Source: Motilibacteraceae bacterium (GTDB lineage Bacteria > Actinomycetota > Actinomycetes > Motilibacterales > Motilibacteraceae). Taken from it: a stretch of 64,000 bases of DNA. The stretch lies in assembly GCA_051953655.1 (NCBI GenBank), contig JBQCIO010000106.1, forward strand, positions 8,052 through 72,051. Reading direction: 5' to 3'. Both the position numbers and the translations under genes were made by a program. A model generated the notes under the pieces. The model was not told where the DNA came from and searched no databases. It worked only from the letters and a program-made list of their open reading frames with translations. This document shows, piece after piece, positions 46,933 through 56,069 of the stretch (position 1 is the first letter of the stretch; each line of letters starts with the position of its first letter).

Positions 46933-47025
46933 GTTCCGTGGCGGGCGAAGGCGCGCGTGCGTGGCGCAGGCGTCGGACGCACGGGCCGTCCCTCACCGAT
47001 GGGTTCTGCGGGGGCACGTGCGGTC

Positions 47026-47771
47026 CTAGTGCTCACGGAGATGCGCGTCCTCAACCGTCACGGCGGGCAGGGCGATGAGGCCGACGGCCAGGAGCAGCAG
47101 GTCCTGACCGATCATGACCGTCCACAGAGCACCACCGTGCAGACCGGTGGTGTGCAAGAGCAGGTCGAGTACCGCATGGGTCACAGCCAACGCCCACAGG
47201 GCGTTGGTCCGTAGCCGCAGCACGCTGTACCCGAAGCCGAAGGCGGCGGCTCCGACGGCCTGGGCCGCGGTGACGGCGGCGTTCTGACCGAAGAGGACGT
47301 TCGCCAGGTGAGCGGCGCCGAAGACGGCAGCGGAGAGGGCAGCGGCTCTTCCCGCTCCCATCGGGAGCGCGGCGCGAGCACGACGCCGCGGAACCACAGC
47401 TCCTCGTAGACGCCGGTGGCGATGTAGCCAACGGTCAGCACGAGCAGGGTCGACGGCTCCGGCGACCAACCCCAGGCGAGCGGCACCAGAGCCAGTGTGA
47501 CCGGGACGACGAGCCAGCGCCTCGTCCGCCACGTGCTCGGGCCAGCGGCGGCCAGGGACGACCAGCCCACCCGCCGTGCCACGGCCAGGCTCAGCACGAG
47601 CAGTAGCAGCACGACGACCAACCGGCGAAGCGTCTCGTCCGAGTGAGGCGCGACCCACGCGAGCAGCAACCCACCCGCCAGCGTGGCGCCCACGCTGACC
47701 GCGGCCAGGGCGAACACGTCCCGGACAGGGCGGCTCCGACCGGCCTCGACCTCCAGCGCGAGGCCGGTCAC
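47026..47771 (-). pseudogene. CPBP-family intramembrane glutamic endopeptidase (CAAX protease-like), split by a 1-nt frameshift near 47365-47380
   Basis: Motif 1 (YEELWFRGVVL) is in the frame of ORF 47181-47900. Motifs 2 and 3 (SAAVFGAAHL and THAVLDLL) are in the frame of ORF 47026-48123. The two frames meet in a GC run (gcgcgccgcg). The N-terminal start is GTG 47771, which forms a GTGA overlap with the upstream stop. It could be a true pseudogene or an assembly error. Confidence 0.6.
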
Positions 47772-48298
47772 GATGCCACCCGCTGGGCCCCGGTCGCGGC
47801 CTCGGCCGTGAGCGGCGCCGGACGACGTGAGCGCAGAGCCACAGAGATCGTCCGCGACAGCACCATCGCGAGCGCCATGGCGACGAACGCCGCGGTCCAC
47901 GCGTCGGCTCCCGTGATGGCGTGGTCGCGGGAGAACTCACCGACGGTGTGGGCGCCCGGGCCGGTGGCCCACTCAGCGAAGGCGATGCGGCCGCCGATCG
48001 CGACGACCCAGGCCGCGGCGTATCCGACGCCGGTCGTGGCGACGAGTCGACCGCTTCGGTCGTGCAGTCGGGTGGACGCGCCGGCCGCCACGCCCAGGAC
48101 GAGGCCCACCGCACCGAGCACACCGATCAGCAGGAGATCGTGGCCTTGGGTCGGTAGCGGCAAGAGGAAGATCGACGCCACGACGACGATGGCCAGCGGC
48201 ACGACGAACGTGCCCTGCGTGATCGGCCTGGTCCCGAGGTTGCGCGCGAGGGCCCAGGTCAGGAGGGCCAGAGACAGGATCCACTGGGCGGTGCTCAT
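47768..48298 (-). CDS. small polytopic membrane protein (DUF1453-like, tentative)
   Basis: Trimmed from 47768-48328 to the ATG at 48298. It begins MSTAQWILSLALLTWALARN..., has about 4-5 TM helices and is translationally coupled to the CPBP gene. Confidence 0.6.
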   Translation of the reverse strand: MSTAQWILSLALLTWALARNLGTRPITQGTFVVPLAIVVVASIFLLPLPTQGHDLLLIGVLGAVGLVLGVAAGASTRLHDRSGRLVATTGVGYAAAWVVAIGGRIAFAEWATGPGAHTVGEFSRDHAITGADAWTAAFVAMALAMVLSRTISVALRSRRPAPLTAEAATGAQRVAS

Positions 48299-48379
48299 CG
48301 AGAGCTCCCTTCGAGGTTGATGCCTCAAAGGTGCCGCTCAGGGCTCGCCACGGCCTCGGTGACAAAGGCCGCCGCGGTG

Positions 48380-48417
48380 GTGACCATCGGCCGTCCCCCT
48401 CTCGGCCGGATGACGTA
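48380..48417 (-). promoter_or_regulatory. conserved 38-nt upstream block, copy 1 (TACGTCATCCGGCCGA-N7-ACGGC-N5-GTCAC)
   Basis: The minus-strand reading is TACGTCATCCGGCCGAgagggggACGGCcgatgGTCAC. It lies 81-118 nt upstream of the 48298 start and immediately after the response-regulator stop. Confidence 0.6.
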
Positions 48418-48423
48418 GTGGCC

Positions 48424-49104
48424 CTACTGCAGCGTTCCGACCCCCGCCGCGTCGATCAGCCCCTCGCGCACTGCCCACATGGCGGCCTGCGTGCGGCTGG
48501 CCAGGCCGAGCTTGGCGAGGATGTTGGAGACGTGGGTGCGGGCGGTGCGTTCTGCCACCCCCAGCGTCCGCGCGATGTCGCGATTGGTCTGCCCTTCGGC
48601 GATCAGCACGACCACCTCGCGCTCGCGGTCGGTCAGGTCGGCCGCCGCGGTCCTCGGCGTCCGTAGCCCTGCCGCCAGCGCGGCGGCCGCCGCCGGGTCC
48701 AGCCGGACCTCCCCTGCCACGGCGGCACGGATCGCGGCGACCACGTCCTCAGCGTCCGAGTCCTTGAGCAGGTAGCCGGTGGCCCCGGCCGCGAGCGCGG
48801 CGCGGATGCGCGCTTCCTCGACGAAGGACGTGACGGCGATGACCTCGATGCCGGGCCACGTGGCCTTCACCTGCGCCGTGGCGTCGACGCCGTCGAGGTG
48901 AGGCATCTGCAGGTCCATGAGGACGACGTCCGGCGTGCGCTCCTGTGACGCCAGGACGCTCAGCCGGGCCAGCGCCTCGCGGCCGTCGGCCGCCTGACCG
49001 ACGACCTCGATGCCGGGTTCGGTGCTGAGGTACGACTCCAGACCTGCCCGCACGACAGTGTGGTCGTCGACGAGGAACACCTCGATCGGCTGCCCGAGAT
49101 CCAC
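48424..49104 (-). CDS. NarL/FixJ-family response regulator (REC + LuxR HTH)
   Basis: Trimmed from 48424-49188 to GTG 49104. It reads IEVFLVDDHTVVRAGL, has the phospho-acceptor region PDVVLMDLQMP, and the HTH LTDREREVVVLIAEGQTNRDIARTLGVAERTARTHVSNILAKLG. Confidence 0.92.
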   Translation of the reverse strand: MDLGQPIEVFLVDDHTVVRAGLESYLSTEPGIEVVGQAADGREALARLSVLASQERTPDVVLMDLQMPHLDGVDATAQVKATWPGIEVIAVTSFVEEARIRAALAAGATGYLLKDSDAEDVVAAIRAAVAGEVRLDPAAAAALAAGLRTPRTAAADLTDREREVVVLIAEGQTNRDIARTLGVAERTARTHVSNILAKLGLASRTQAAMWAVREGLIDAAGVGTLQ

Positions 49105-49108
49105 GCAG

Positions 49109-49705
49109 TCATTGTGGCGTTCCCGACTCGCACGTGCCAGGACGTGTGCGCCCGGGCTCAGACACGTGCAGGACGGCGTAGCGGTCACCGGGGGCCTCCT
49201 CCGGCACCTGGCGAGACCATAGGGTCAGGGTGACGCGGTGCCAGGTCGACGGGTCGATGCCGGTCACCACGCAGGTGACGCCCGGATGCCTCGAGGCCCT
49301 CGCCGCCTCGGCCCCCATCCGGTCGCTGAGCTCGATGAGCGAGAGTCCTGGGCCGATGCTGTCGACCGTTCGTGTCGCGGCGACCGGCACGACGTCACGT
49401 GCAGGCCCCTCGCAGACGGCGATGGAGTGCCAGGTTCGGATGGTCGGGCGCCCGAAGTCGTTGCAGATGCCGTCGAAGCCGGGCCCGAAGACGAACTGGT
49501 TCATCCCGTCGACCTCCGCCCACAGGTAGAAGGGCGCGTACTGGTTCACAGGCGACCCGTCGCGGCCGCGTTCGCGCATCAGGTACGCCTTGAAGCCGAG
49601 CCCCGGGAAGTCGTCGGTGCGCGACCCGCGGCTCGCCACGCGTTCGTGGATGATGCCCATGTCGTAGTCGGCGGGCAGGGTGATCTCGTACTGCATCAGA
49701 TGCAT
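49109..49705 (-). CDS. DUF4865-like protein
   Basis: Trimmed from 49109-49963 to the ATG at 49705. It reads MHLMQYEITLPADYDMGIIHERVASRGSRTDDFPGLGFKAYLMRERG. The family is assigned from memory of this conserved N-terminus. Confidence 0.6.
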   Translation of the reverse strand: MHLMQYEITLPADYDMGIIHERVASRGSRTDDFPGLGFKAYLMRERGRDGSPVNQYAPFYLWAEVDGMNQFVFGPGFDGICNDFGRPTIRTWHSIAVCEGPARDVVPVAATRTVDSIGPGLSLIELSDRMGAEAARASRHPGVTCVVTGIDPSTWHRVTLTLWSRQVPEEAPGDRYAVLHVSEPGRTRPGTCESGTPQ

Positions 49706-50094
49706 CGGTGCTCCTGAAAGGGTCGCAGTTCCTCGGTGGTGAGCGCGCAGAAAAGGTTGCCCTCCGGGTCGGCGAACACCTGCCACCGGCCCTTCGGGTC
49801 CTGCCACTGAGGAACCGCGCCGAGCGACGTCAGCCGATCGAGGTCGGCAACGTCGTCGAGTCGGATGTCGAGGTGCACGCGCCCCGGGGGCGGTGAGAGC
49901 TGTTCCGCCGGGCTGATCCACACGTGCGGGCCGTCGCGCCGGCCGAGCAGCACCGACTCGCACTCGCCGAGTGTCCCGCGCTCGATCGCCTGGGCGTCCT
50001 GCGGATCGACGGGAAGGGCGAGCACAGCGGACCAGAAGGCGGCGAGCACGGCCGGACGCCGGCTGTGGATGGTGATCGCCTCAAGATGCGACAC
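49696..50094 (-). CDS. VOC (glyoxalase/bleomycin-resistance fold) family protein
   Basis: The track ORF is 49696-50130. The likely start is GTG 50094 (VSHLEAITIHSRRPAVLAAFW...). It also contains HLDIRLDD and FADPEGNLFC. Confidence 0.7.
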   Translation of the reverse strand: MSHLEAITIHSRRPAVLAAFWSAVLALPVDPQDAQAIERGTLGECESVLLGRRDGPHVWISPAEQLSPPPGRVHLDIRLDDVADLDRLTSLGAVPQWQDPKGRWQVFADPEGNLFCALTTEELRPFQEHRCI

Positions 50095-51295
50095 GGGTGC
50101 CTCGTTCGTCGTGAGTGGCCGTCCCTGCACCCCGCGGCAGAAAGGCGTCCAGTGCCCGGATCACGAGCCCCGGCGTCTCGAGCGTCGGCATGTGCGGTGC
50201 GCCAAGGAGCTCGACGTAGGTGGACCCAGGGACGTTGTCGGCGAGTCGGGTCATCACCGCCGGCCCGGTCGAGGCGTCCTGCTCACCGCACAGCACAAGC
50301 GTGGGGCGTGGCCAACCCCGGAGTCGGCCGGCCACATCGAGCCGCGAGAAGGAGCGCCACGCCGCGGCGACCTGGCGTGGCTCACCCCGCAGTACGCACT
50401 CGCGGGCGTACCGCACGCCCCAGCCGTTCTCGGCCAACGCCTCCGGCGTGAACCACCGTGTGAGAGAGGGAGCGACCTGCGCGGCCACACCGTCGTGCTC
50501 GACCGCTTCCGCCCGGCCGCCGAAGGAGTCGAAGGCTTGGTCGGTGGTGGCGGCAAGCGTCAGCGACAGCACGCTGTCCGGGTGCCGTACGGCGAAGGTC
50601 TGCGCCACGGCGCCGCCGTACGAGAGTCCGACGACGTGAGCGCGTTCGACGCCCGTCGCCGCCATCACTTCGAGCAGGTCGTCCGCCAGCTGCGAGAGCT
50701 CAGTAGGTGCCGGCGCTTCCGTGGCGGCGCCGTGTCCGCGTAGGTCGTAGGCGAACACCCGACGACCGACGGCCAGCTGCCGGATGATCGGCTCCCACAT
50801 GCGCCAGGTGAGTCCGAGAGCGTGCAACAGGACGACGGCCGGGCCGGTGTCTCCGTACTGCGCGAGCTGGGTGGTGTGGTCCGACAGGGTCAGAGGGCGC
50901 ACCGGCACGGCGACGCCGTCGTCGGCACCCAGGCCGTCGAGCACGTCTCGCACCACGTCCAGTCCGTTCAACGCCCGAGGGAAGCCGGCGTACACCGACG
51001 TGTGCTCAGCAAGGGCTCGCAGCTCGTCAGCCGTGACGCCGTGCTGCAGGGCCGCTTTCAGGTGCACGCGCAGCTGAGGCTCGACACCGCCGAGCGCGAT
51101 GAGCACGGCGACAGTGGCGACCTCGCGGTCGCGCCAGGACAGCCGCGGGTCCGCCAGTGGTTGGCTGAACGCGCCGTCGAGCAGCCAGCGGAACATCGCA
51201 GGAGCCTCGGCCCGCAGTGAGGCCAGAGAAGTCTCGGGGTCGGTCCCGACGAGCGACCGGAAGGTGCGCGGGCCTCGCGCGTCGACGGTGGTCAT
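50081..51295 (-). CDS. fusion protein: carboxymuconolactone decarboxylase (CMD) domain + alpha/beta-hydrolase (enol-lactonase-like) domain
   Basis: Trimmed from 50081-52294 to the ATG at 51295 (404 aa). The N-terminal CMD motif is LSWRDREVATVAVLIALGGVEPQLRVHLKAALQHGVTADELRALAEHTSVYAGFP. The C-terminal hydrolase has VVLLHALG, the nucleophile elbow VVGLSYGG, and GAPHM. Confidence 0.8.
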   Translation of the reverse strand: MTTVDARGPRTFRSLVGTDPETSLASLRAEAPAMFRWLLDGAFSQPLADPRLSWRDREVATVAVLIALGGVEPQLRVHLKAALQHGVTADELRALAEHTSVYAGFPRALNGLDVVRDVLDGLGADDGVAVPVRPLTLSDHTTQLAQYGDTGPAVVLLHALGLTWRMWEPIIRQLAVGRRVFAYDLRGHGAATEAPAPTELSQLADDLLEVMAATGVERAHVVGLSYGGAVAQTFAVRHPDSVLSLTLAATTDQAFDSFGGRAEAVEHDGVAAQVAPSLTRWFTPEALAENGWGVRYARECVLRGEPRQVAAAWRSFSRLDVAGRLRGWPRPTLVLCGEQDASTGPAVMTRLADNVPGSTYVELLGAPHMPTLETPGLVIRALDAFLPRGAGTATHDERGTRVAS

Positions 51296-51405
51296 ACAGT
51301 GCCTCTCGTAGGGGGGCGATGGGCCGGCGGCTGACCTGCCGCCTGGCCTCACCAGCGTTGCGGTCGCGCGACCCGCGCACCTCGGTGCTGCGACCGGGGC
51401 GGGCC

Positions 51406-51443
51406 GTGACGTTGTGCCGTCGGCCGGTCGGCCGGATGACGTA
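51406..51443 (-). promoter_or_regulatory. conserved 38-nt upstream block, copy 2
   Basis: The minus-strand reading is TACGTCATCCGGCCGAccggccgACGGCacaacGTCAC. The 16-mer is identical to copy 1 and the spacing of the ACGGC and GTCAC elements is the same. It lies 110-147 nt upstream of the 51295 start, just after the kinase stop. Confidence 0.6.
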
Positions 51444-51471
51444 CCTGCCGCTTCCTGCGAGGTCCGCGCTG

Positions 51472-52995
51472 CTACGCCACCGGCACGCTCACCGTGACGA
51501 CGCAGCCGGCACCCGGCGCGCTGTCCACGGTGAGGCGGCCGCCGATGGCCGTTGCGCGATCGCGCATCGTCACCTGGCCCAGGTGGCCCTCCTGCACGGA
51601 GGCGGGGTCGAAGCCCCGGCCGTCGTCGCGCACCTGCACGGTCAACAGGTGCGCCGCGTCGTCCGCGCGTACCTGGACGGCGACGGTGGTGGCCGCCGCG
51701 TGCTTGACGGTGTTGTGCAGCGCCTCCAGCACCAGGCGGTACAGGTGCTCCTCCGTTCGCGGATCCAGCGCGAGTCGGCGCTCGGGACCGGCGACGGTGA
51801 TAGTCAGCCCTTCCCGGGCGCTGAGCGCCGCCGCCTGCCGCGTCAGCGCGACCACGAGACCTTCGTTCTCCAGCGCCCCGGGGCGCAGCTCGAAGATCAG
51901 CGCCCTCATCTCGGCGAGCGCACCGCGCGTCAGTGCCGCCAAGGTCTCCAGGCTGGTGGCGAGAGGGTCGCTCGGCGCAACCCCGTGGCCGGCGAGGCGT
52001 CGCTGCGCAGCACGCGCGTGCATCGTCATCGAGAACAGCGCCTGGCTGACCGAGTCGTGCAGCTCTCGCGCGAGACGCTGCCGCTCGACGAGCGTGGCGT
52101 GCGACTCGGCTGCGCCGAACAGTCGCGAGTTCTCGACGGCGACTGCGGACTGGTCGGCGATCGCCTGCAGGAACGCGCGCTCGGCCCCGTCCAGCTGGTA
52201 GTCGGCTGCGACGTAGAGCAGCAGGCACCCCACGCACCGCCCTCGGGCGCCCAGCGGCACTACGACGACGTCCTGGAACTGCATCGCCACCCACGTCGAG
52301 TGCAACGGGCCATAGCGAGGGTCGGCCTCGGCGTGGCCACGAAAGTCTCGGATGACCGTGACGTCGGTCGCCAACGTGACATTGCGGATCGGCGAGTCGA
52401 CCCCGGCGGCGTAGGCGGCTTCGACCCGCTCGCGATAACCCTCGGGAAGCCCGTCATCGCCGTAGGCGGAGAGGTCCCGCAGCTCCTCGTCCTCCCACAC
52501 CACGACGGCTGCCGCCTCGGCACCCGTGGCAGAACGCACGCTGCGGGCGACCTGACGCAGCGTCCCTTCGAGCGGGTGCTCGAGCGTCATGGCATCGGCG
52601 ATCCCGGCGAAGGCCGCGATCCGGCGTTCCAGCTGCTCGTAGGCCGCCACCTGCTCTGTGACGTCGGTGGCGGTGACGAGAAGGCCGCGGGCCCCGCTCT
52701 CCAGCTCGATCGGGGCGAGGACCAGGTCCCAGTGGATCGCGGAGCCGTCCTGACCGGTCAGCGAGACTCTACGACGCCCGACGTCCGCGGAGGGCGCGCC
52801 AACCGCAGAGAGCCACCGACCGTCGAACCGGCTCCCGAAGAGCCCAGCCCACCCCGGGCTGCTACGCAGCACGCGGCCTTCGGCGTCGAGCAGAGCCACT
52901 GCTATCGGCAGATGACTGACAAGGCATTCCCACGACGGCAGCACCTCAGCGACACCGTGGCTTCGCGAGGGGGTCTCAGCCACCCAGTGGTCCAT
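51472..52995 (-). CDS. sensor histidine kinase (PAS + GAF + HisKA_3 + HATPase_c; cytoplasmic)
   Basis: Trimmed from 51472-53460 to the ATG at 52995 (507 aa). It has a PAS-like region (LPIAVALLDAEGRVLRSSPGW), a GAF-like middle, the H-box ERQRLARELHDSVSQALFS (the NarL-partner HisKA_3 type), and the ATPase motifs EALHNTVKHA and DDGRGF. Confidence 0.88.
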   Translation of the reverse strand: MDHWVAETPSRSHGVAEVLPSWECLVSHLPIAVALLDAEGRVLRSSPGWAGLFGSRFDGRWLSAVGAPSADVGRRRVSLTGQDGSAIHWDLVLAPIELESGARGLLVTATDVTEQVAAYEQLERRIAAFAGIADAMTLEHPLEGTLRQVARSVRSATGAEAAAVVVWEDEELRDLSAYGDDGLPEGYRERVEAAYAAGVDSPIRNVTLATDVTVIRDFRGHAEADPRYGPLHSTWVAMQFQDVVVVPLGARGRCVGCLLLYVAADYQLDGAERAFLQAIADQSAVAVENSRLFGAAESHATLVERQRLARELHDSVSQALFSMTMHARAAQRRLAGHGVAPSDPLATSLETLAALTRGALAEMRALIFELRPGALENEGLVVALTRQAAALSAREGLTITVAGPERRLALDPRTEEHLYRLVLEALHNTVKHAAATTVAVQVRADDAAHLLTVQVRDDGRGFDPASVQEGHLGQVTMRDRATAIGGRLTVDSAPGAGCVVTVSVPVA

Positions 52996-53082
52996 CCTCG
53001 ACTCCCGACTCGTGCCCCTGCACCGACCGAGCCTGCCATGCCGGTCGGCGGCGCGTCGACGCCTTGCGCCTGGTCCGTCTCG

Positions 53083-53095
53083 GTCATCCGGCCGA
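53083..53095 (+). promoter_or_regulatory. third, inverted partial copy of the locus motif (GTCATCCGGCCGA)
   Basis: It is a 13/13 match to the core of copies 1 and 2 but on the plus strand. It therefore has the same orientation relative to the plus-strand yciI-like gene (start 53211, 115 nt downstream) and lies 88-100 nt upstream of the divergent kinase start. Confidence 0.5.
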
Positions 53096-53210
53096 GCTGC
53101 TGGCGACGTATCCGCAGGGACGGGTCGAGCCATCCCGCCGAGGTGACGACGCGCGCAGCGGGAAAGACTGGGCGACGCGCAGATCATCCGACGACAGAGG
53201 AGTCCGCAGC

Positions 53211-53537
53211 ATGTCAGCCGAAAGCACGTCACCGGCCCCTGAGCTCTTCTCGGGAACCGCCTTCGTCCTCCTGGTCGACTACCTCTTTCCGTTGTCGCGG
53301 ATCGACCAGCTGCTGGACGACCACCGCGCCTGGCTGGACGGCCACTTCGCCGACGGCACCTTCCTGGTCTCGGGTCCGCGGGTTCCTCGCGTCGGCGGCA
53401 CGATCCTGGCGACCGGTACGTCGCGCGACGACCTGGAACGCAGGATCGCGTCCGATCCACTGGTCCTGGCGGGTGCGGCCCGCTACGAGGTCGTGGAGTT
53501 CAGCCCCACCCGCGGCCCCTACGCCACGGTGGCGTAA
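53211..53537 (+). CDS. YciI-family protein
   Basis: Trimmed from 53064-53537 to the ATG at 53211, which has AGAGGAG upstream. It is 108 aa and reads ...FVLLVDYL...HRAWLDGHFADGTFLVSGP...GGTILA...DPLVLAGAARYEVVEF. Confidence 0.7.
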   Translation: MSAESTSPAPELFSGTAFVLLVDYLFPLSRIDQLLDDHRAWLDGHFADGTFLVSGPRVPRVGGTILATGTSRDDLERRIASDPLVLAGAARYEVVEFSPTRGPYATVA

Positions 53538-53690
53538 CCGACGTCGTCGAGCCACCCCGCGCGGGCCGGGCGAATCCCGACACTGCTGACCGCTGGCCGG
53601 ACATTGTGGACAGGCCTACCAGGGCCATCCCCTGGTCGTTCACCCCTCGACCGATGTCGCCCTGTGCGGTCTGGCCCCCGACAGAACGGC

Positions 53691-56069
53691 TCAGGCGACG
53701 ACCGGCCGGCTGGCGGCCACCTGCCCCTGGCCGGGCAGCTGCGGCAGCGGCGACGGGCGCTCGTGCCGGGCCTGGTGCACGGCCACCGCGGCGCGGTGGT
53801 AGTCCTCCAGCTCGGCCACGAACGCCGGGTCGACGTAGCGCGCGCCGTCCACGGCCGGGCCCTGGGTGCCCTCGATGACCGCGACGACGTCCTCGCCGGA
53901 CAGCGTGAGCTGGGTCTCCAGGGCGTGGGTGACCGCGAGGACCTCGCGGCGGTTGGCCCGCAGGATCTCCGACGTCCTGTCGTAGAGCTCGCGCAGCTTG
54001 GCCTCGATGGCCTCGCCGGTGGCCGAGTCGTAGGGCAGGTCGCCGAGGTCGACGCCGGAACGCAGCTGCACGCCCATGTTGTGCGCGCGCAGCGTCGAGC
54101 CCATCGCGTGCGAGAGGAAGGCGCGGGTGACGATGGCGGTGGCGTTGGCCATGTCGCCGCCGACGCCCTGGGTGTGGTCGCCGTCGTAGAACAGCCGCTC
54201 GCCGGCAAGGCTGGCCAGGAAGGTCATGACGTCGACCTCGACCTCGCTGCGCCACTCGACGAAGCGCTCCTCCACCGGGATCGGGGAGACGAAGCCGCCG
54301 GTGTCGCCGCGCCGCTCGATGGTGGCGGTGTCGATGATCGAGGACTTCTGCAGCCGGTACATCACGACCGCGTGGCAGGCCTCGTGCAGCGCCACGCTGT
54401 GCCGCTCGCGGTCGACGTAGCTGAAGCCGTCGGCCAGGCCGTGCTCCTTGAGCGAGCGGGCGCGCAGCACGTCGGCGTAGGTGACGGTGTGCCGCCCGTC
54501 GCGCATGGCGGTGATGAGTGCCTCGTTGACGACGTCCTTGATGGTGGCACCGGTGGCGTAGGGCGTGATGGTGGCCAGCCGCTCGATCTGCGCCTCGGTG
54601 AGGTCGTGGTCGACCCGGTCCAGGTAGTTCCGGTAGGTGACGACCCGGCCCTCCTTGGTCGGGTAGCCCACCCGGTAGATCCGGTCGATGCGGCCCGGGC
54701 GCAGCAGCGCCGGGTCCAGCGAGTCGGGCATGTTGGTGGCCATCACCACGAGGATCCGGTACTTGGGCGGCGGCTTGGGCCGCATGCCGAGCACCTTGCG
54801 CAGCGAGCGGTTGAGGAACCCGCGCGGCTTCTTCAGGCCGGACAGCTCGGTGAGCAGCGCCTGCAGGGTGCCGTCGAACGAGCCGCGCCCGCCGTTCATA
54901 CCGCCGGGCATCACGAACTCCGCCTCGGCCCGCGCCATCTCCTGGCGGGTGAGGAAGTCGCGGGTCGGCGCGGAGACGTAACCACGGCCGCCGCACGCGT
55001 GCTCGTCCACCCACGGCGCCGGGCTGCCCATGGCCGCGGCCACCTTGCGCGCGTTGGCCACCGCGCCGCCGCGGCTGCCAAGGGTGTCGGCCTCGTCGAA
55101 GAACACGATGACGCCGCCGTAGCGCAGGGCGAGCTTGCGCAGCTTCCGGAACAGGCCCTTGACCTTGAGGACGCCGACCCCGAAGAACATGTTGATGAAC
55201 GCGCCCGGGTCGACGAAGACGTAGGGCTTGCCGGTCTCGCCGGCCATCGCCTCGGCCATCAGCGTCTTGCCGGTGCCCGGCGGTCCCCACAACAGGATCC
55301 CGCTGGGCACGTAGCCGCCGGCAGCCTCGATCTTCTCGGGGTCCTCCAGGAACACGACGTTCTCGCGAACCTTCTCCAGCACGCGGTCCTGGCCCCACAC
55401 GTCGGTGAACCGGGTGCGGATGTCGTCGGGCATGTAGGTCTCGACGCCGCCGCGGCTGAGGAACCAGAAGATGCCGGCGAACTGCAGGATCCCGAACAGC
55501 AGCGCGAAGGCGAGCTGGAAGGCCAGCGGCAGCGCGGAGTAGACCTTGGTGGGCAGGCTGAACAGGGCGCGCACCGGGGACTGGTGGGTGGCCTTGCCGA
55601 GCACGACCGCGAGCAGCACCACGAACAGCGCGAGCTTGAGGGCCCGGGCCAGCCGGTAGCGGTTCCAGTCGTCGATGCGGTGCGTCAGCCGGTCGGTGCC
55701 CGCGAACAGCCGGTTCCAGCGCCGGTGGTAGCGGGCGGAGCGCTCGGCCACCAGGAAGTGCAGCTGGCGCAGCACCTCCAGCCCGGCCAGCAGCAGCAGC
55801 CACCAGTAGGTGGTGGCGGTGGCGGGCAGCGCCGCGACAGGCGACTCCAGCCCGAGGGACTGGTCGTACTCGTACCACCACAGCACGCCGACGACGACGG
55901 CGAGCAGGAGCAGCAGCTTGGTGCGGTCCCACAGCGCGAGCTTGGGCCGGGTCGGCCGGTCCTCCAGCCGGGGGCGCGAGCCGACCGGACCGGTGTCCGG
56001 CGCGGCCAGGCCGGCCAGCGGGTGCTGCCCCTGCTCCGCCGTGGCCGTGGCGCTCTCGTCGTCGCTCAT
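53691..56069 (-). CDS. atypical FtsH-family AAA+ zinc metalloprotease (4 predicted N-terminal TM helices, insertion in the AAA module)
   Basis: Trimmed from 53691-56168 to the ATG at 56069, which has AGGAG upstream (792 aa). Walker A is [13 protein letters not shown] and Walker B is VIVFFDEADTLG. About 90 aa lie between Walker B and the sensor-1 region ILVVMATNMPDSLDPALLRPGRIDRIY. The M41 motif is ALHEACHAVV (HExxH), and downstream is GERLFYDGDHTQGVGGDMANAT. Confidence 0.8.
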   Translation of the reverse strand: MSDDESATATAEQGQHPLAGLAAPDTGPVGSRPRLEDRPTRPKLALWDRTKLLLLLAVVVGVLWWYEYDQSLGLESPVAALPATATTYWWLLLLAGLEVLRQLHFLVAERSARYHRRWNRLFAGTDRLTHRIDDWNRYRLARALKLALFVVLLAVVLGKATHQSPVRALFSLPTKVYSALPLAFQLAFALLFGILQFAGIFWFLSRGGVETYMPDDIRTRFTDVWGQDRVLEKVRENVVFLEDPEKIEAAGGYVPSGILLWGPPGTGKTLMAEAMAGETGKPYVFVDPGAFINMFFGVGVLKVKGLFRKLRKLALRYGGVIVFFDEADTLGSRGGAVANARKVAAAMGSPAPWVDEHACGGRGYVSAPTRDFLTRQEMARAEAEFVMPGGMNGGRGSFDGTLQALLTELSGLKKPRGFLNRSLRKVLGMRPKPPPKYRILVVMATNMPDSLDPALLRPGRIDRIYRVGYPTKEGRVVTYRNYLDRVDHDLTEAQIERLATITPYATGATIKDVVNEALITAMRDGRHTVTYADVLRARSLKEHGLADGFSYVDRERHSVALHEACHAVVMYRLQKSSIIDTATIERRGDTGGFVSPIPVEERFVEWRSEVEVDVMTFLASLAGERLFYDGDHTQGVGGDMANATAIVTRAFLSHAMGSTLRAHNMGVQLRSGVDLGDLPYDSATGEAIEAKLRELYDRTSEILRANRREVLAVTHALETQLTLSGEDVVAVIEGTQGPAVDGARYVDPAFVAELEDYHRAAVAVHQARHERPSPLPQLPGQGQVAASRPVVA

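What the first reader, a model, noticed from the sequence alone, without database searches (positions are those of the whole stretch)
48380..53095. Shared 16-nt motif (TACGTCATCCGGCCGA) with a conserved downstream architecture in all three promoter regions of a split two-component locus
An identical 16-mer occurs at 48402-48417 and 51428-51443 (minus sense). In both cases the same arrangement follows: N7-ACGGC-N5-GTCAC, which gives a 38-nt block.

A 13-nt core copy (GTCATCCGGCCGA) occurs inverted at 53083-53095. Relative to the nearest downstream start codon, each copy has the same orientation and a similar distance:
- about 103 nt to the DUF1453-CPBP pair;
- about 132 nt to the CMD/hydrolase-VOC-DUF4865-response regulator operon;
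- about 115 nt to the yciI-like gene, and about 88 nt to the divergent histidine kinase.

A 16/16 identity at matching positions in three local promoter regions is very unlikely by chance. The simplest reading is an operator for the NarL-type response regulator encoded here (autoregulation plus a small local regulon). An alternative-sigma promoter element is also possible.
Basis: seen in the sequence. Interest (0 to 1): 0.6.

Follow-up and report, generated by a model that had tools for sequence, protein, structure and literature searches.

The report
Response-regulator box in three promoters
The repeated 16-letter motif is most likely the docking site of the locus's own LiaR/VraR-like response regulator, at a fixed distance upstream of three local promoters; the same site-plus-promoter unit accompanies this uncharacterised two-component system in Actinomycetota and Chloroflexota.

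Summary
TACGTCATCCGGCCGA is exact at 48402-48417 and 51428-51443 (minus strand). Its 13-nt core is at 53083-53095 (plus strand). The 5.0-Mb genome holds only one other exact 13-mer, in unrelated DNA.

Each copy heads a unit of about 100 bp with fixed spacing:
- the box;
- 42 nt later, CCGA;
- 27-28 nt later, a -10-like NANNNT hexamer;
- 7 nt later, a purine, the predicted start of transcription.

The box therefore sits about 98 to 83 bp upstream of that start.

The unit is absent from the seven closest held genomes, which also lack the kinase. It recurs next to orthologues of this regulator and kinase in many Actinomycetota and Chloroflexota MAGs and in Planosporangium thailandense, usually upstream of a DUF1453-like membrane protein and a CPBP protease.

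The box fits the LiaR/VraR frame T-N4-C-N4-G-N4-A. The regulator's recognition helix is nearly identical to LiaR's and is invariant across phyla.

Structured RNA is not supported: no covariation, no consistent fold stability, no conserved promoter upstream of the box.

Binding, the transcription start and activation are inferred, not shown. Verdict: a new member of a known kind, of moderate interest.

The parts
48401..48418 (-). Box copy C (CTACGTCATCCGGCCGAG; 16-mer at 48402-48417). It starts 6 nt after the regulator's stop codon and lies upstream of the DUF1453-like/CPBP pair.
   Evidence: Conservation falls to background immediately outside the 18-mer.
48381..48394 (-). Copy C, intermediate block 1b (ACGGCCGATGGTCA). 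It is a partial inverted repeat of the box's 3' part. Its role is unknown.
   Evidence: weak conservation, at most 0.7 bit per position; resemblance to the inverted box is only about 1.6 SD above control offsets.
48354..48361 (-). Copy C, proximal block CACCGAGG (CCGA at 48356-48359), about -40 to -33 from the predicted start.
   Evidence: CCGA is present at +42 to +44 in every site found without requiring it.
48328..48333 (-). Copy C, predicted -10 hexamer CACCTT. The predicted transcription start is A at 48321, giving a 23-nt leader with GAAGGGAG as ribosome-binding site before ATG 48298.
   Evidence: inferred from conservation; no transcript data.
51427..51444 (-). Box copy B (16-mer at 51428-51443). 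It starts 28 nt after the kinase's stop codon and lies upstream of the CMD/hydrolase-Glyoxalase_6-DUF4865-regulator operon.
51380..51387 (-). Copy B, proximal block CACCGAGG (CCGA at 51382-51385).
51354..51359 (-). Copy B, predicted -10 hexamer AACGCT. The predicted start is G at about 51347, giving a leader of about 52 nt before ATG 51295.
53079..53096 (+). Box copy A (CTCGGTCATCCGGCCGAG; 13-nt core at 53083-53095). It points to the YCII gene and lies 87 nt from the divergent kinase's start codon.
53131..53143 (+). Copy A, proximal block CATCCCGCCGAGG. Its first 11 nt match the box's CATCCGGCCGA in 10 of 11 positions.
53164..53169 (+). Copy A, predicted -10 hexamer AAGACT. The predicted start is at 53175/53176, giving a leader of about 35 nt before ATG 53211.
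48424..49104 (-). Response regulator (REC + GerE/LuxR helix-turn-helix), the presumed box-binding protein.
51472..52995 (-). Histidine kinase with PAS-GAF-HisKA_3-HATPase domains. I saw no membrane segment on reading its sequence.
50081..51295 (-). CMD + alpha/beta-hydrolase fusion, first gene of the box-B operon.
49696..50094 (-). Glyoxalase_6 (VOC) protein.
49109..49705 (-). DUF4865 protein.
47768..48298 (-). DUF1453-like membrane protein, the most common box-driven gene in other genomes.
47026..47771 (-). CPBP (Rce1-like) protease gene, read in two frames here (apparent frameshift).
53211..53537 (+). YCII-domain protein, driven by box A.

Best explanation
Each copy is the upstream activating site of a complete regulator-dependent promoter unit of about 100 bp.

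The 16-18-bp box (C-TACGTCATCCGGCCGA-G) is the primary binding site for a dimer of the locus's LiaR/VraR-like response regulator. It lies about 98 to 83 bp upstream of the predicted start. The conserved sCCGAyG block lies at about -40 to -33, where a -35 element would normally be. The -10 hexamer has the form NANNNT, followed 7 nt later by a purine start.

When the soluble PAS-GAF kinase phosphorylates the regulator, the regulator bound at the box, probably with further copies extending over the intermediate and proximal blocks, recruits RNA polymerase to a promoter that has no recognisable -35 element. In this genome that would switch on three units:
- the DUF1453-like/CPBP pair;
- the CMD/hydrolase-Glyoxalase_6-DUF4865-regulator operon, which is positive autoregulation;
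- the YCII gene.

Shown: the sequence architecture, its conservation, its co-occurrence with the two-component system, and the LiaR-like reading head. Inferred: binding, the transcription start, activation rather than repression, and the role of the proximal blocks.
For: 1. Specificity. The unit occurs only three times in the genome.

2. Co-occurrence.
- In a 401-genome class sample the pattern occurs in the own genome and in G051, G165, G169, G205 and G342. These are exactly the five other genomes with a DUF1453 orthologue of at least 61% identity.
- Two lone hits look like chance, and the reversed-pattern control gives 0 everywhere.
- The seven closest held genomes have neither the kinase nor the motif.
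- The usual context is regulator-kinase-[box]-DUF1453-CPBP. In Chloroflexota the box-driven membrane-protein gene lies next to a regulator orthologue of 53-58% identity.

3. Box anatomy.
- Conservation is sharply bounded to 18 bp and is about zero in the 20 nt upstream.
- The 16-mer fits T(X)4C(X)4G(X)4A, the LiaR consensus frame. In that frame the C and G are read by Lys177 of each LiaR monomer (PMC4482077).
- Natural variants with up to 2 changes (CATaCGG, CATtCGG, CAatCGG, TcgGTCAT) all keep T1, C6, G11 and A16.

4. Protein.
- The DNA-binding domain's best solved relatives are the enterococcal LiaR DNA-binding domain (4wt0; further entries 4wu4, 4wuh, 4wul) and VraR.
- The helix ERTARTHVSNILAKL compares with LiaR's LKTVKTHVSNILAKL.
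- The helix is identical in all 13 orthologues checked, across two phyla.

5. Promoter.
- An A-N3-T hexamer lies 27-29 nt after CCGA (27 or 28 in 42, 29 in one) in 43 of 44 non-redundant sites, with 18 different hexamers. Roughly 10% would be expected by chance.
- The base 7 nt later is a purine in 37 of 43 sites and A in 25 of 43, against a 13% background for A.
- In L045 the DUF1453 ATG sits exactly at that +7 position with no ribosome-binding site, as in a leaderless mRNA.

6. Precedent. LiaR and VraR bind a conserved primary site upstream plus a less conserved second site. VraR R1 is at -75 to -50 and R2 at -46 to -26. The LiaR primary site is at -76 to -52. The E. faecalis liaXYZ consensus is at -99 to -84 (PMC6612188, PMC7191749, PMC4482077).
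Against: - There is no binding, footprint or transcript data. The genome is a soil MAG and no RNA runs are listed.
- The box is only weakly palindromic: 3 of 8 symmetric pairs.
- Its centre, about -90, is roughly 25 bp further upstream than the LiaR and VraR primary sites mapped relative to a transcription start.
- The idea that blocks 1b and 2 are degenerate copies of the box is weak statistically, about 1.6 SD above control offsets.
- Most of the sites compared were collected with a pattern that required the 16-mer and CCGA. The invariance of those letters in that set is therefore by construction. Only about 10 sites were found independently of the motif.
- The kinase gene itself has no unit pointing at it.
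Confidence: 0.72

Rival explanations
1. A cis-regulatory RNA leader, riboswitch- or attenuator-like. The box, the CCGA block and the later blocks would be conserved RNA segments transcribed with or after the upstream gene, and they would control the downstream gene.
For: - Exact 16-nt conservation across phyla and a fixed orientation and spacing are typical of RNA motifs.
- Some leaders fold well: L076 has z = -3.7 and L083 z = -4.0.
- In several leaders the block I read as the -10 can pair with the ribosome-binding site.
- The box-to-CCGA region shows a slight folding tendency, mean z = -0.57.
Against: - The RNAalifold consensus over 23 leaders is -4.4 kcal/mol, with 4 invariant pairs and no covarying pair.
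- The z-scores of 12 leaders range from -4.0 to +1.6 (mean about -0.9), and the folds are not shared.
- No Rfam family matches, even at E up to 10.
- There is no conserved promoter signal in the 20 nt upstream of the box, which often starts 6-30 nt after a stop codon.
- A conserved -10/start signal lies downstream of the box and CCGA blocks, including one leaderless case.
Confidence: 0.07
2. A promoter for an alternative (ECF-type) sigma factor. GTCATCC would be the -35 element and CGTTGAT/CGATGG (block 1b) the -10 element, giving a long leader.
For: GTCA.. followed by CGT./CGA. about 18-19 nt later loosely resembles ECF promoters, such as the ECF41-type TGTCACA-N16-CGTC (from my own knowledge).
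Against: - Block 1b is poorly conserved, at most 0.7 bit per position, and is replaced by other sequences in Chloroflexota.
- The 18-19-nt spacer is long for ECF promoters.
- No sigma gene appears among the genes called in the three neighbourhoods listed in full; the constant neighbours are the regulator and the kinase.
- All 16 box positions are conserved, not two short elements.
Confidence: 0.07
3. The box is a protein-binding site, but not an activating site for this regulator. It could be bound by another factor, or by the regulator acting as a repressor or roadblock. It could also serve as an insulator or terminator between adjacent genes.
For: - Two of the three copies directly follow a stop codon.
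- The site lies far upstream, about -90.
- An earlier scan note on another Chloroflexota genome describes regulator site + terminator + -10 cassettes.
Against: - Copy A lies in a divergent intergenic region with no gene ending upstream.
- No terminator-like site is found.
- The only genes that always accompany the box are the regulator and kinase.
- The promoters lack a recognisable -35 element, as activator-dependent promoters do.
Confidence: 0.12

Closest known systems
LiaR-dependent promoters of Firmicutes (B. subtilis PliaI; E. faecalis liaXYZ and liaFSR)
   Same: - A NarL-family regulator with a nearly identical recognition helix.
- A 16-bp site in the frame T(X)4C(X)4G(X)4A.
- My ungapped comparison with the PliaI box ATAcGACtcccgGTCtTAT (quoted in PMC7191749) gives 10 of 16 identities, of the form TACGnC..CCGG.C.
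- The site lies well upstream of the promoter, with additional less conserved protected DNA.
- The targets are small membrane proteins, and the system regulates itself.
   Different: - The kinase here has PAS and GAF domains and no membrane segment that I could see on reading its sequence. It is not an intramembrane-sensing LiaS, and no LiaF partner is seen.
- The box sequence and its right half differ.
- The targets differ: DUF1453-like and CPBP proteins, CMD/hydrolase, YCII.
- The hosts are high-GC Actinomycetota and Chloroflexota.
- NCBIfam equivalog models all score below their cut-offs.
S. aureus VraR at the vraSR promoter (R1/R2 sites)
   Same: - VraR is the best full-length solved relative (5hev, E = 4.6e-50).
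- VraR uses a conserved upstream primary site plus a less conserved proximal site reaching the -35 region, which needs the phosphorylated dimer (PMC6612188). This matches the layout of the box plus the CCGA block at -40 to -33.
   Different: - R1 lies at -75 to -50, whereas the box here lies at about -98 to -83, with an about 40-bp gap to the proximal block.
- The resemblance of the proximal block to the box is not significant statistically.
DosR/DevR and NarL operators
   Same: The same protein family, with GerE-type helix-turn-helix dimers that read guanines through a conserved basic residue (PMC4482077).
   Different: DosR boxes are 20-bp palindromes and NarL uses 7-2-7 heptamers (from my own knowledge). 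Neither sequence resembles this box.

Membership tests
Operator of a NarL/LuxR-family (LiaR/VraR-type) response regulator | A cognate regulator with a GerE-type helix-turn-helix is encoded nearby and co-occurs with the site. | tested here: met
   the regulator lies in the locus, and the motif is present only in genomes with the orthologous locus.
Operator of a NarL/LuxR-family (LiaR/VraR-type) response regulator | Site of dimer size (16-20 bp) fitting the family frame T(X)4C(X)4G(X)4A. | tested here: met
   the conserved stretch is 18 bp with sharp edges. T1, C6, G11 and A16 are present in all copies and in all natural variants with up to 2 changes. The frame is taken from PMC4482077.
Operator of a NarL/LuxR-family (LiaR/VraR-type) response regulator | Two-fold (inverted-repeat) symmetry of the half-sites. 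| tested here: inconclusive
   Only 3 of 8 symmetric position pairs are complementary (T1/A16, G4/C13, C6/G11), read directly from the sequence.
Operator of a NarL/LuxR-family (LiaR/VraR-type) response regulator | The regulator physically binds the site. | not testable with these tools
   This needs EMSA, footprinting or DAP-seq.
LiaFSR / VraSR cell-envelope stress system | An intramembrane-sensing kinase (two membrane helices, HAMP domain) with a LiaF/VraT partner. | tested here: not met
   the kinase has PAS-GAF-HisKA_3 domains and I saw no membrane segment on reading its sequence. The LiaS model scores 96 bits against a cut-off of 450. No LiaF-like gene appears in the conserved neighbourhood.
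Bacterial sigma-70-type promoter (actinobacterial form, -10 TANNNT) | A at position 2 and T at position 6 of a hexamer, with a purine start about 7 nt downstream. | tested here: met
   43 of 44 sites have the hexamer, and 37 of 43 have a purine at +7.
Bacterial sigma-70-type promoter (actinobacterial form, -10 TANNNT) | A mapped transcription start. | not testable with these tools
   No RNA runs hold this DNA.
Structured cis-regulatory RNA (riboswitch or leader) | A conserved secondary structure supported by covariation. | tested here: not met
   4 invariant pairs and 0 compensatory changes; no shared fold; no Rfam match.

The most novel reading that the evidence does not exclude
The two-component pair, its invariant 16-bp site and a rigidly spaced promoter unit of about 100 bp form one portable regulatory module. 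That module has moved between Actinomycetota and Chloroflexota and captures different membrane-protein and small-molecule-enzyme genes in each host. The fixed 42-nt and 27-28-nt spacings would then reflect an unusual higher-order regulator-DNA complex spanning about -100 to -35, for example a tetramer or wrapped DNA, rather than a simple dimer site.
Probability: 0.25. Interest if true: 0.55.

Novelty: new member of a known kind. Interest (0 to 1): 0.35.

Why it matters
It gives a testable regulon and binding site for a widespread two-component system that has no name and no literature. The system pairs a PAS-GAF kinase with a LiaR-like regulator and occurs in soil and freshwater Actinomycetota and Chloroflexota.

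The target genes belong to families of unknown or poorly known function: DUF1453-like, CPBP, DUF4865, YCII and a CMD-hydrolase fusion. Linking them to one signal offers a way to study what they do.

The sharply defined box and its fixed spacing also make a compact inducible-promoter part for high-GC bacteria. The mechanism itself is conventional.

Tried and rejected
- **Rfam.** A scan of 47000-54500 at E up to 10 gave only two weak, unrelated hits.
- **Structured RNA.** RNAalifold on 23 leaders found no covariation. Twelve single folds gave no shared structure, with z from -4.0 to +1.6. Region-wise z-scores were -0.57 and +0.14. Two shuffle scripts timed out.
- **Close relatives.** The held order has only 8 genomes. 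None has the kinase orthologue or the motif, so orthologous intergenic alignment within the order was impossible.
- **Weaker copies in the own genome.** A bipartite scan and an nhmmer profile found none.
- **E. coli-type promoter and terminator scan.** Nothing was found, as expected at 74% G+C.
- **Blocks 1b and 2 as degenerate copies of the box.** The resemblance is only about 1.6 SD above control offsets, so I do not claim it.
- **ECF/SigK-like reading.** I considered CCATCC-N16-CCGAAT (recalled from memory). The spacing does not fit: 48 nt lie between TCATCC and CCGA.
- **Coding readings.** A leader peptide or a C-terminal extension was rejected, because the three copies follow different genes or no gene.
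- **Literature.** Searches for the motif, for DUF1453 with 'response regulator', and for DUF4865 returned no papers.
- **RNA-seq.** No runs were found.

Full report
**1. The observation**

The region was read directly. TACGTCATCCGGCCGA is exact on the minus strand at 48402-48417 and 51428-51443. On the plus strand, 53080-53095 reads TCGGTCATCCGGCCGA, which has the exact 13-nt core.

Four matches with up to 3 mismatches occur in the window, against 0.82 expected; no shuffle reaches four. The window is C106:8052-72051 of a 5.0-Mb, 74% G+C assembly of 369 contigs. The runs that hold it are soil and rhizosphere metagenomes, so it is a soil MAG.

The exact 13-mer occurs four times in the assembly: the three local copies and one on C193 with no further resemblance.

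- kinase with PAS-GAF-HisKA_3-HATPase domains, 51472-52995 (-);
- CMD + alpha/beta hydrolase, 50081-51295 (-);
- Glyoxalase_6, 49696-50094 (-);
- DUF4865, 49109-49705 (-);
- REC-GerE regulator, 48424-49104 (-);
- a DUF1453-like membrane protein, 47768-48298 (-);
- a CPBP gene, 47026-47771 (-);
- YCII, 53211-53537 (+).

**2. More than a 16-mer**

An ungapped comparison of the three copies shows a second block, C(A/G)CCGAGG, exactly 40 nt after the 13-mer in all three. A genome-wide scan for the bipartite pattern and an nhmmer profile of the whole unit both return only these three places. In this genome the element is therefore strictly local.

**3. Relatives**

The held order has eight genomes. 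None has the kinase orthologue or the motif. By contrast, the regulator has many homologues of 70-92% identity across the class.

Three loci were fetched through regulator homologues, so they were not selected on the motif:
- L035 is an Angustibacter MAG with the same gene order as the window.
- L036 and L037 are two other MAGs. L037 reads DUF1453, REC, regulator, kinase, then a motif before a small ORF; L036 has the REC-regulator-kinase core with DUF1453- and DUF4865-like genes downstream of it.

All three carry cTACGTCATCCGGCCGAga followed 42-43 nt later by CCGA.

A scan of 185,579 species genomes for the 16-mer plus CCGA gave 47 loci. About 38 are real; the rest lie in coding-looking DNA with no further blocks. 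The real ones come from Actinomycetota MAGs, from Planosporangium thailandense, and from several independent Chloroflexota MAGs (Limnocylindria, Chloroflexia).

In about 35 of the 38 real loci, a regulator and/or kinase homologue lies in the 8-kb piece held. The usual order is regulator-kinase-[box]-DUF1453-CPBP. In Chloroflexota the box precedes an unnamed membrane protein of about 150 aa, whose gene lies next to a regulator orthologue of 53-58% identity. Other box-driven genes include a CPBP protease and a PF13796 'Sensor' membrane protein.

A search free of motif bias used DUF1453 homologues in 401 genomes of the class. Every orthologue of at least 61% identity has the box with 0-1 change. 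More distant paralogues instead have CTCCACCC-N-GGGTGGAG palindromes, evidently the operator of a different regulator.

Searching the same 401 genomes for the motif returns exactly those five genomes plus the own genome. Two further lone hits look like chance. The reversed-pattern control gives none.

**4. RNA or DNA?**

Rfam has no match. Several results argue against a structured RNA:
- RNAalifold on 23 leaders gives -4.4 kcal/mol, four invariant pairs and no compensatory change.
- Twelve leaders folded singly give z-scores from -4.0 to +1.6, and the folds differ.
- The box-to-CCGA stretch has only a slight excess stability, mean z = -0.57.
- Information content is about zero in the 20 nt upstream of the box, so there is no conserved promoter that would transcribe it. 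Conservation starts abruptly at C-4 and ends at G+13.

I therefore set the RNA reading aside, at about 7%.

**5. A promoter downstream**

In 43 of 44 non-redundant sites an A-N3-T hexamer lies 27-28 nt after the C of CCGA (29 nt in one site). Eighteen different hexamers occur, for example GACGCT, CACCCT, GAGACT and TACGGT.

The base 7 nt after the T is a purine in 37 of 43 sites and A in 25 of 43. The background frequency of A is 13%. These letters were not part of any search pattern.

A at position 2 and T at position 6 are the two defining positions of the actinobacterial -10 element TANNNT (established knowledge). In L045 the DUF1453 start codon sits exactly at the +7 position and has no ribosome-binding site, as expected for a leaderless mRNA.

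With this start, the 16-mer spans about -98 to -83 and the CCGA block about -40 to -33. No -35-like hexamer is conserved. The predicted starts are 48321, about 51347, and 53175/53176.

**6. Who binds the box?**

The regulator's best solved relatives are VraR for the full length (E = 4.6e-50) and the enterococcal LiaR DNA-binding domain for the C-terminal domain (4wt0; further entries 4wu4, 4wuh, 4wul). Its recognition helix reads ERTARTHVSNILAKL, against LKTVKTHVSNILAKL in LiaR.

LiaR-type sites follow T(X)4C(X)4G(X)4A. The C and G in that frame are read by Lys177 of the two monomers (PMC4482077). Here that residue is Arg.

TACGTCATCCGGCCGA fits the frame exactly: T-ACGT-C-ATCC-G-GCCG-A. The natural variants found keep all four frame positions and vary mostly in the central four or in the first spacer: CATaCGG, CATtCGG, CAatCGG and TcgGTCAT.

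The helix ERTARTHVSNIL.KLGLASRTQAA is identical in all 13 orthologues checked. This includes Chloroflexota proteins only 53-58% identical overall. An invariant reading head thus matches an invariant site.

LiaR and VraR provide the precedent for the layout. Each binds a conserved upstream primary site plus less conserved adjoining DNA, and VraR's R2 site reaches the -35 region (PMC6612188, PMC7191749, PMC4482077).

**7. What remains uncertain**

- The box is only weakly symmetric.
- It lies about 25 bp further upstream than the LiaR and VraR primary sites that were mapped to a transcription start.
- The intermediate block (CGGCCGTTGAT-like) and the CCGA block are conserved. Their likeness to the box is not significant overall, although copy A's CATCCCGCCGA matches the box in 10 of 11 positions.
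- Binding, the transcription start and the direction of regulation are inferred.
- The kinase gene has no unit of its own. The regulator gene is inside the box-B operon, which implies autoregulation of the regulator.

**8. Membership and novelty**

The regulator is LiaR/VraR-like in its DNA-binding head. The system is not LiaFSR or VraSR: the kinase has PAS and GAF domains, I saw no membrane segment on reading its sequence, no LiaF partner is present, and all NCBIfam equivalog models score below their cut-offs.

I found no literature on the motif or on these DUF families in this context. I did not test it.

Verdict: a real, specific regulatory element. It is a new member of a known kind and of moderate interest.

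Noticed in passing
window 47026-47771 (-): The CPBP (Rce1-like) gene downstream of the DUF1453-like gene is read in two frames. The N-terminal part lies in the frame of 47181-47771 and the C-terminal motifs (FGAAHL, HAVLD) in the frame ending at 47026. The Angustibacter orthologue (L035) is one 244-aa ORF. This is either a frameshift or an assembly error in this MAG.
   Followed up: partly
loci L092-L102 (upstream of distant DUF1453 paralogues): DUF1453 paralogues of 35-48% identity in other actinobacteria are preceded by one or two palindromes such as TCTCCACCCGTGGGTGGAGA or GTCCACCCTGGGGTGGAC. This looks like the operator of a different regulator controlling the same protein family.
   Followed up: no
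L076:3583-3675: Two boxes lie back to back about 76 bp apart. One exact box points to a 223-aa membrane protein. A weaker one (TACGTCATCCAGACGG, with its own CCGA and -10) points toward the regulator-kinase operon. L050 and L060 have the variant TACGTCAATCGGCCGA; in L050 it lies upstream of the regulator gene. Autoregulation therefore seems common.
   Followed up: partly
L045:5482-5612: The DUF1453 orthologue here appears to be translated from a leaderless mRNA. Its ATG lies 7 nt after the -10-like GACGCT, and there is no ribosome-binding site.
   Followed up: partly
L036, L037: In several relatives a single-domain receiver (REC-only) protein is encoded directly upstream of the regulator gene. 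It is absent from the window's locus.
   Followed up: no
window 48298-48330 and orthologues: The ribosome-binding region GAAGGGAGCTCCCGATG contains the perfect palindrome GGGAGCTCCC. It is conserved in most DUF1453-type leaders. Its meaning is unknown.
   Followed up: no
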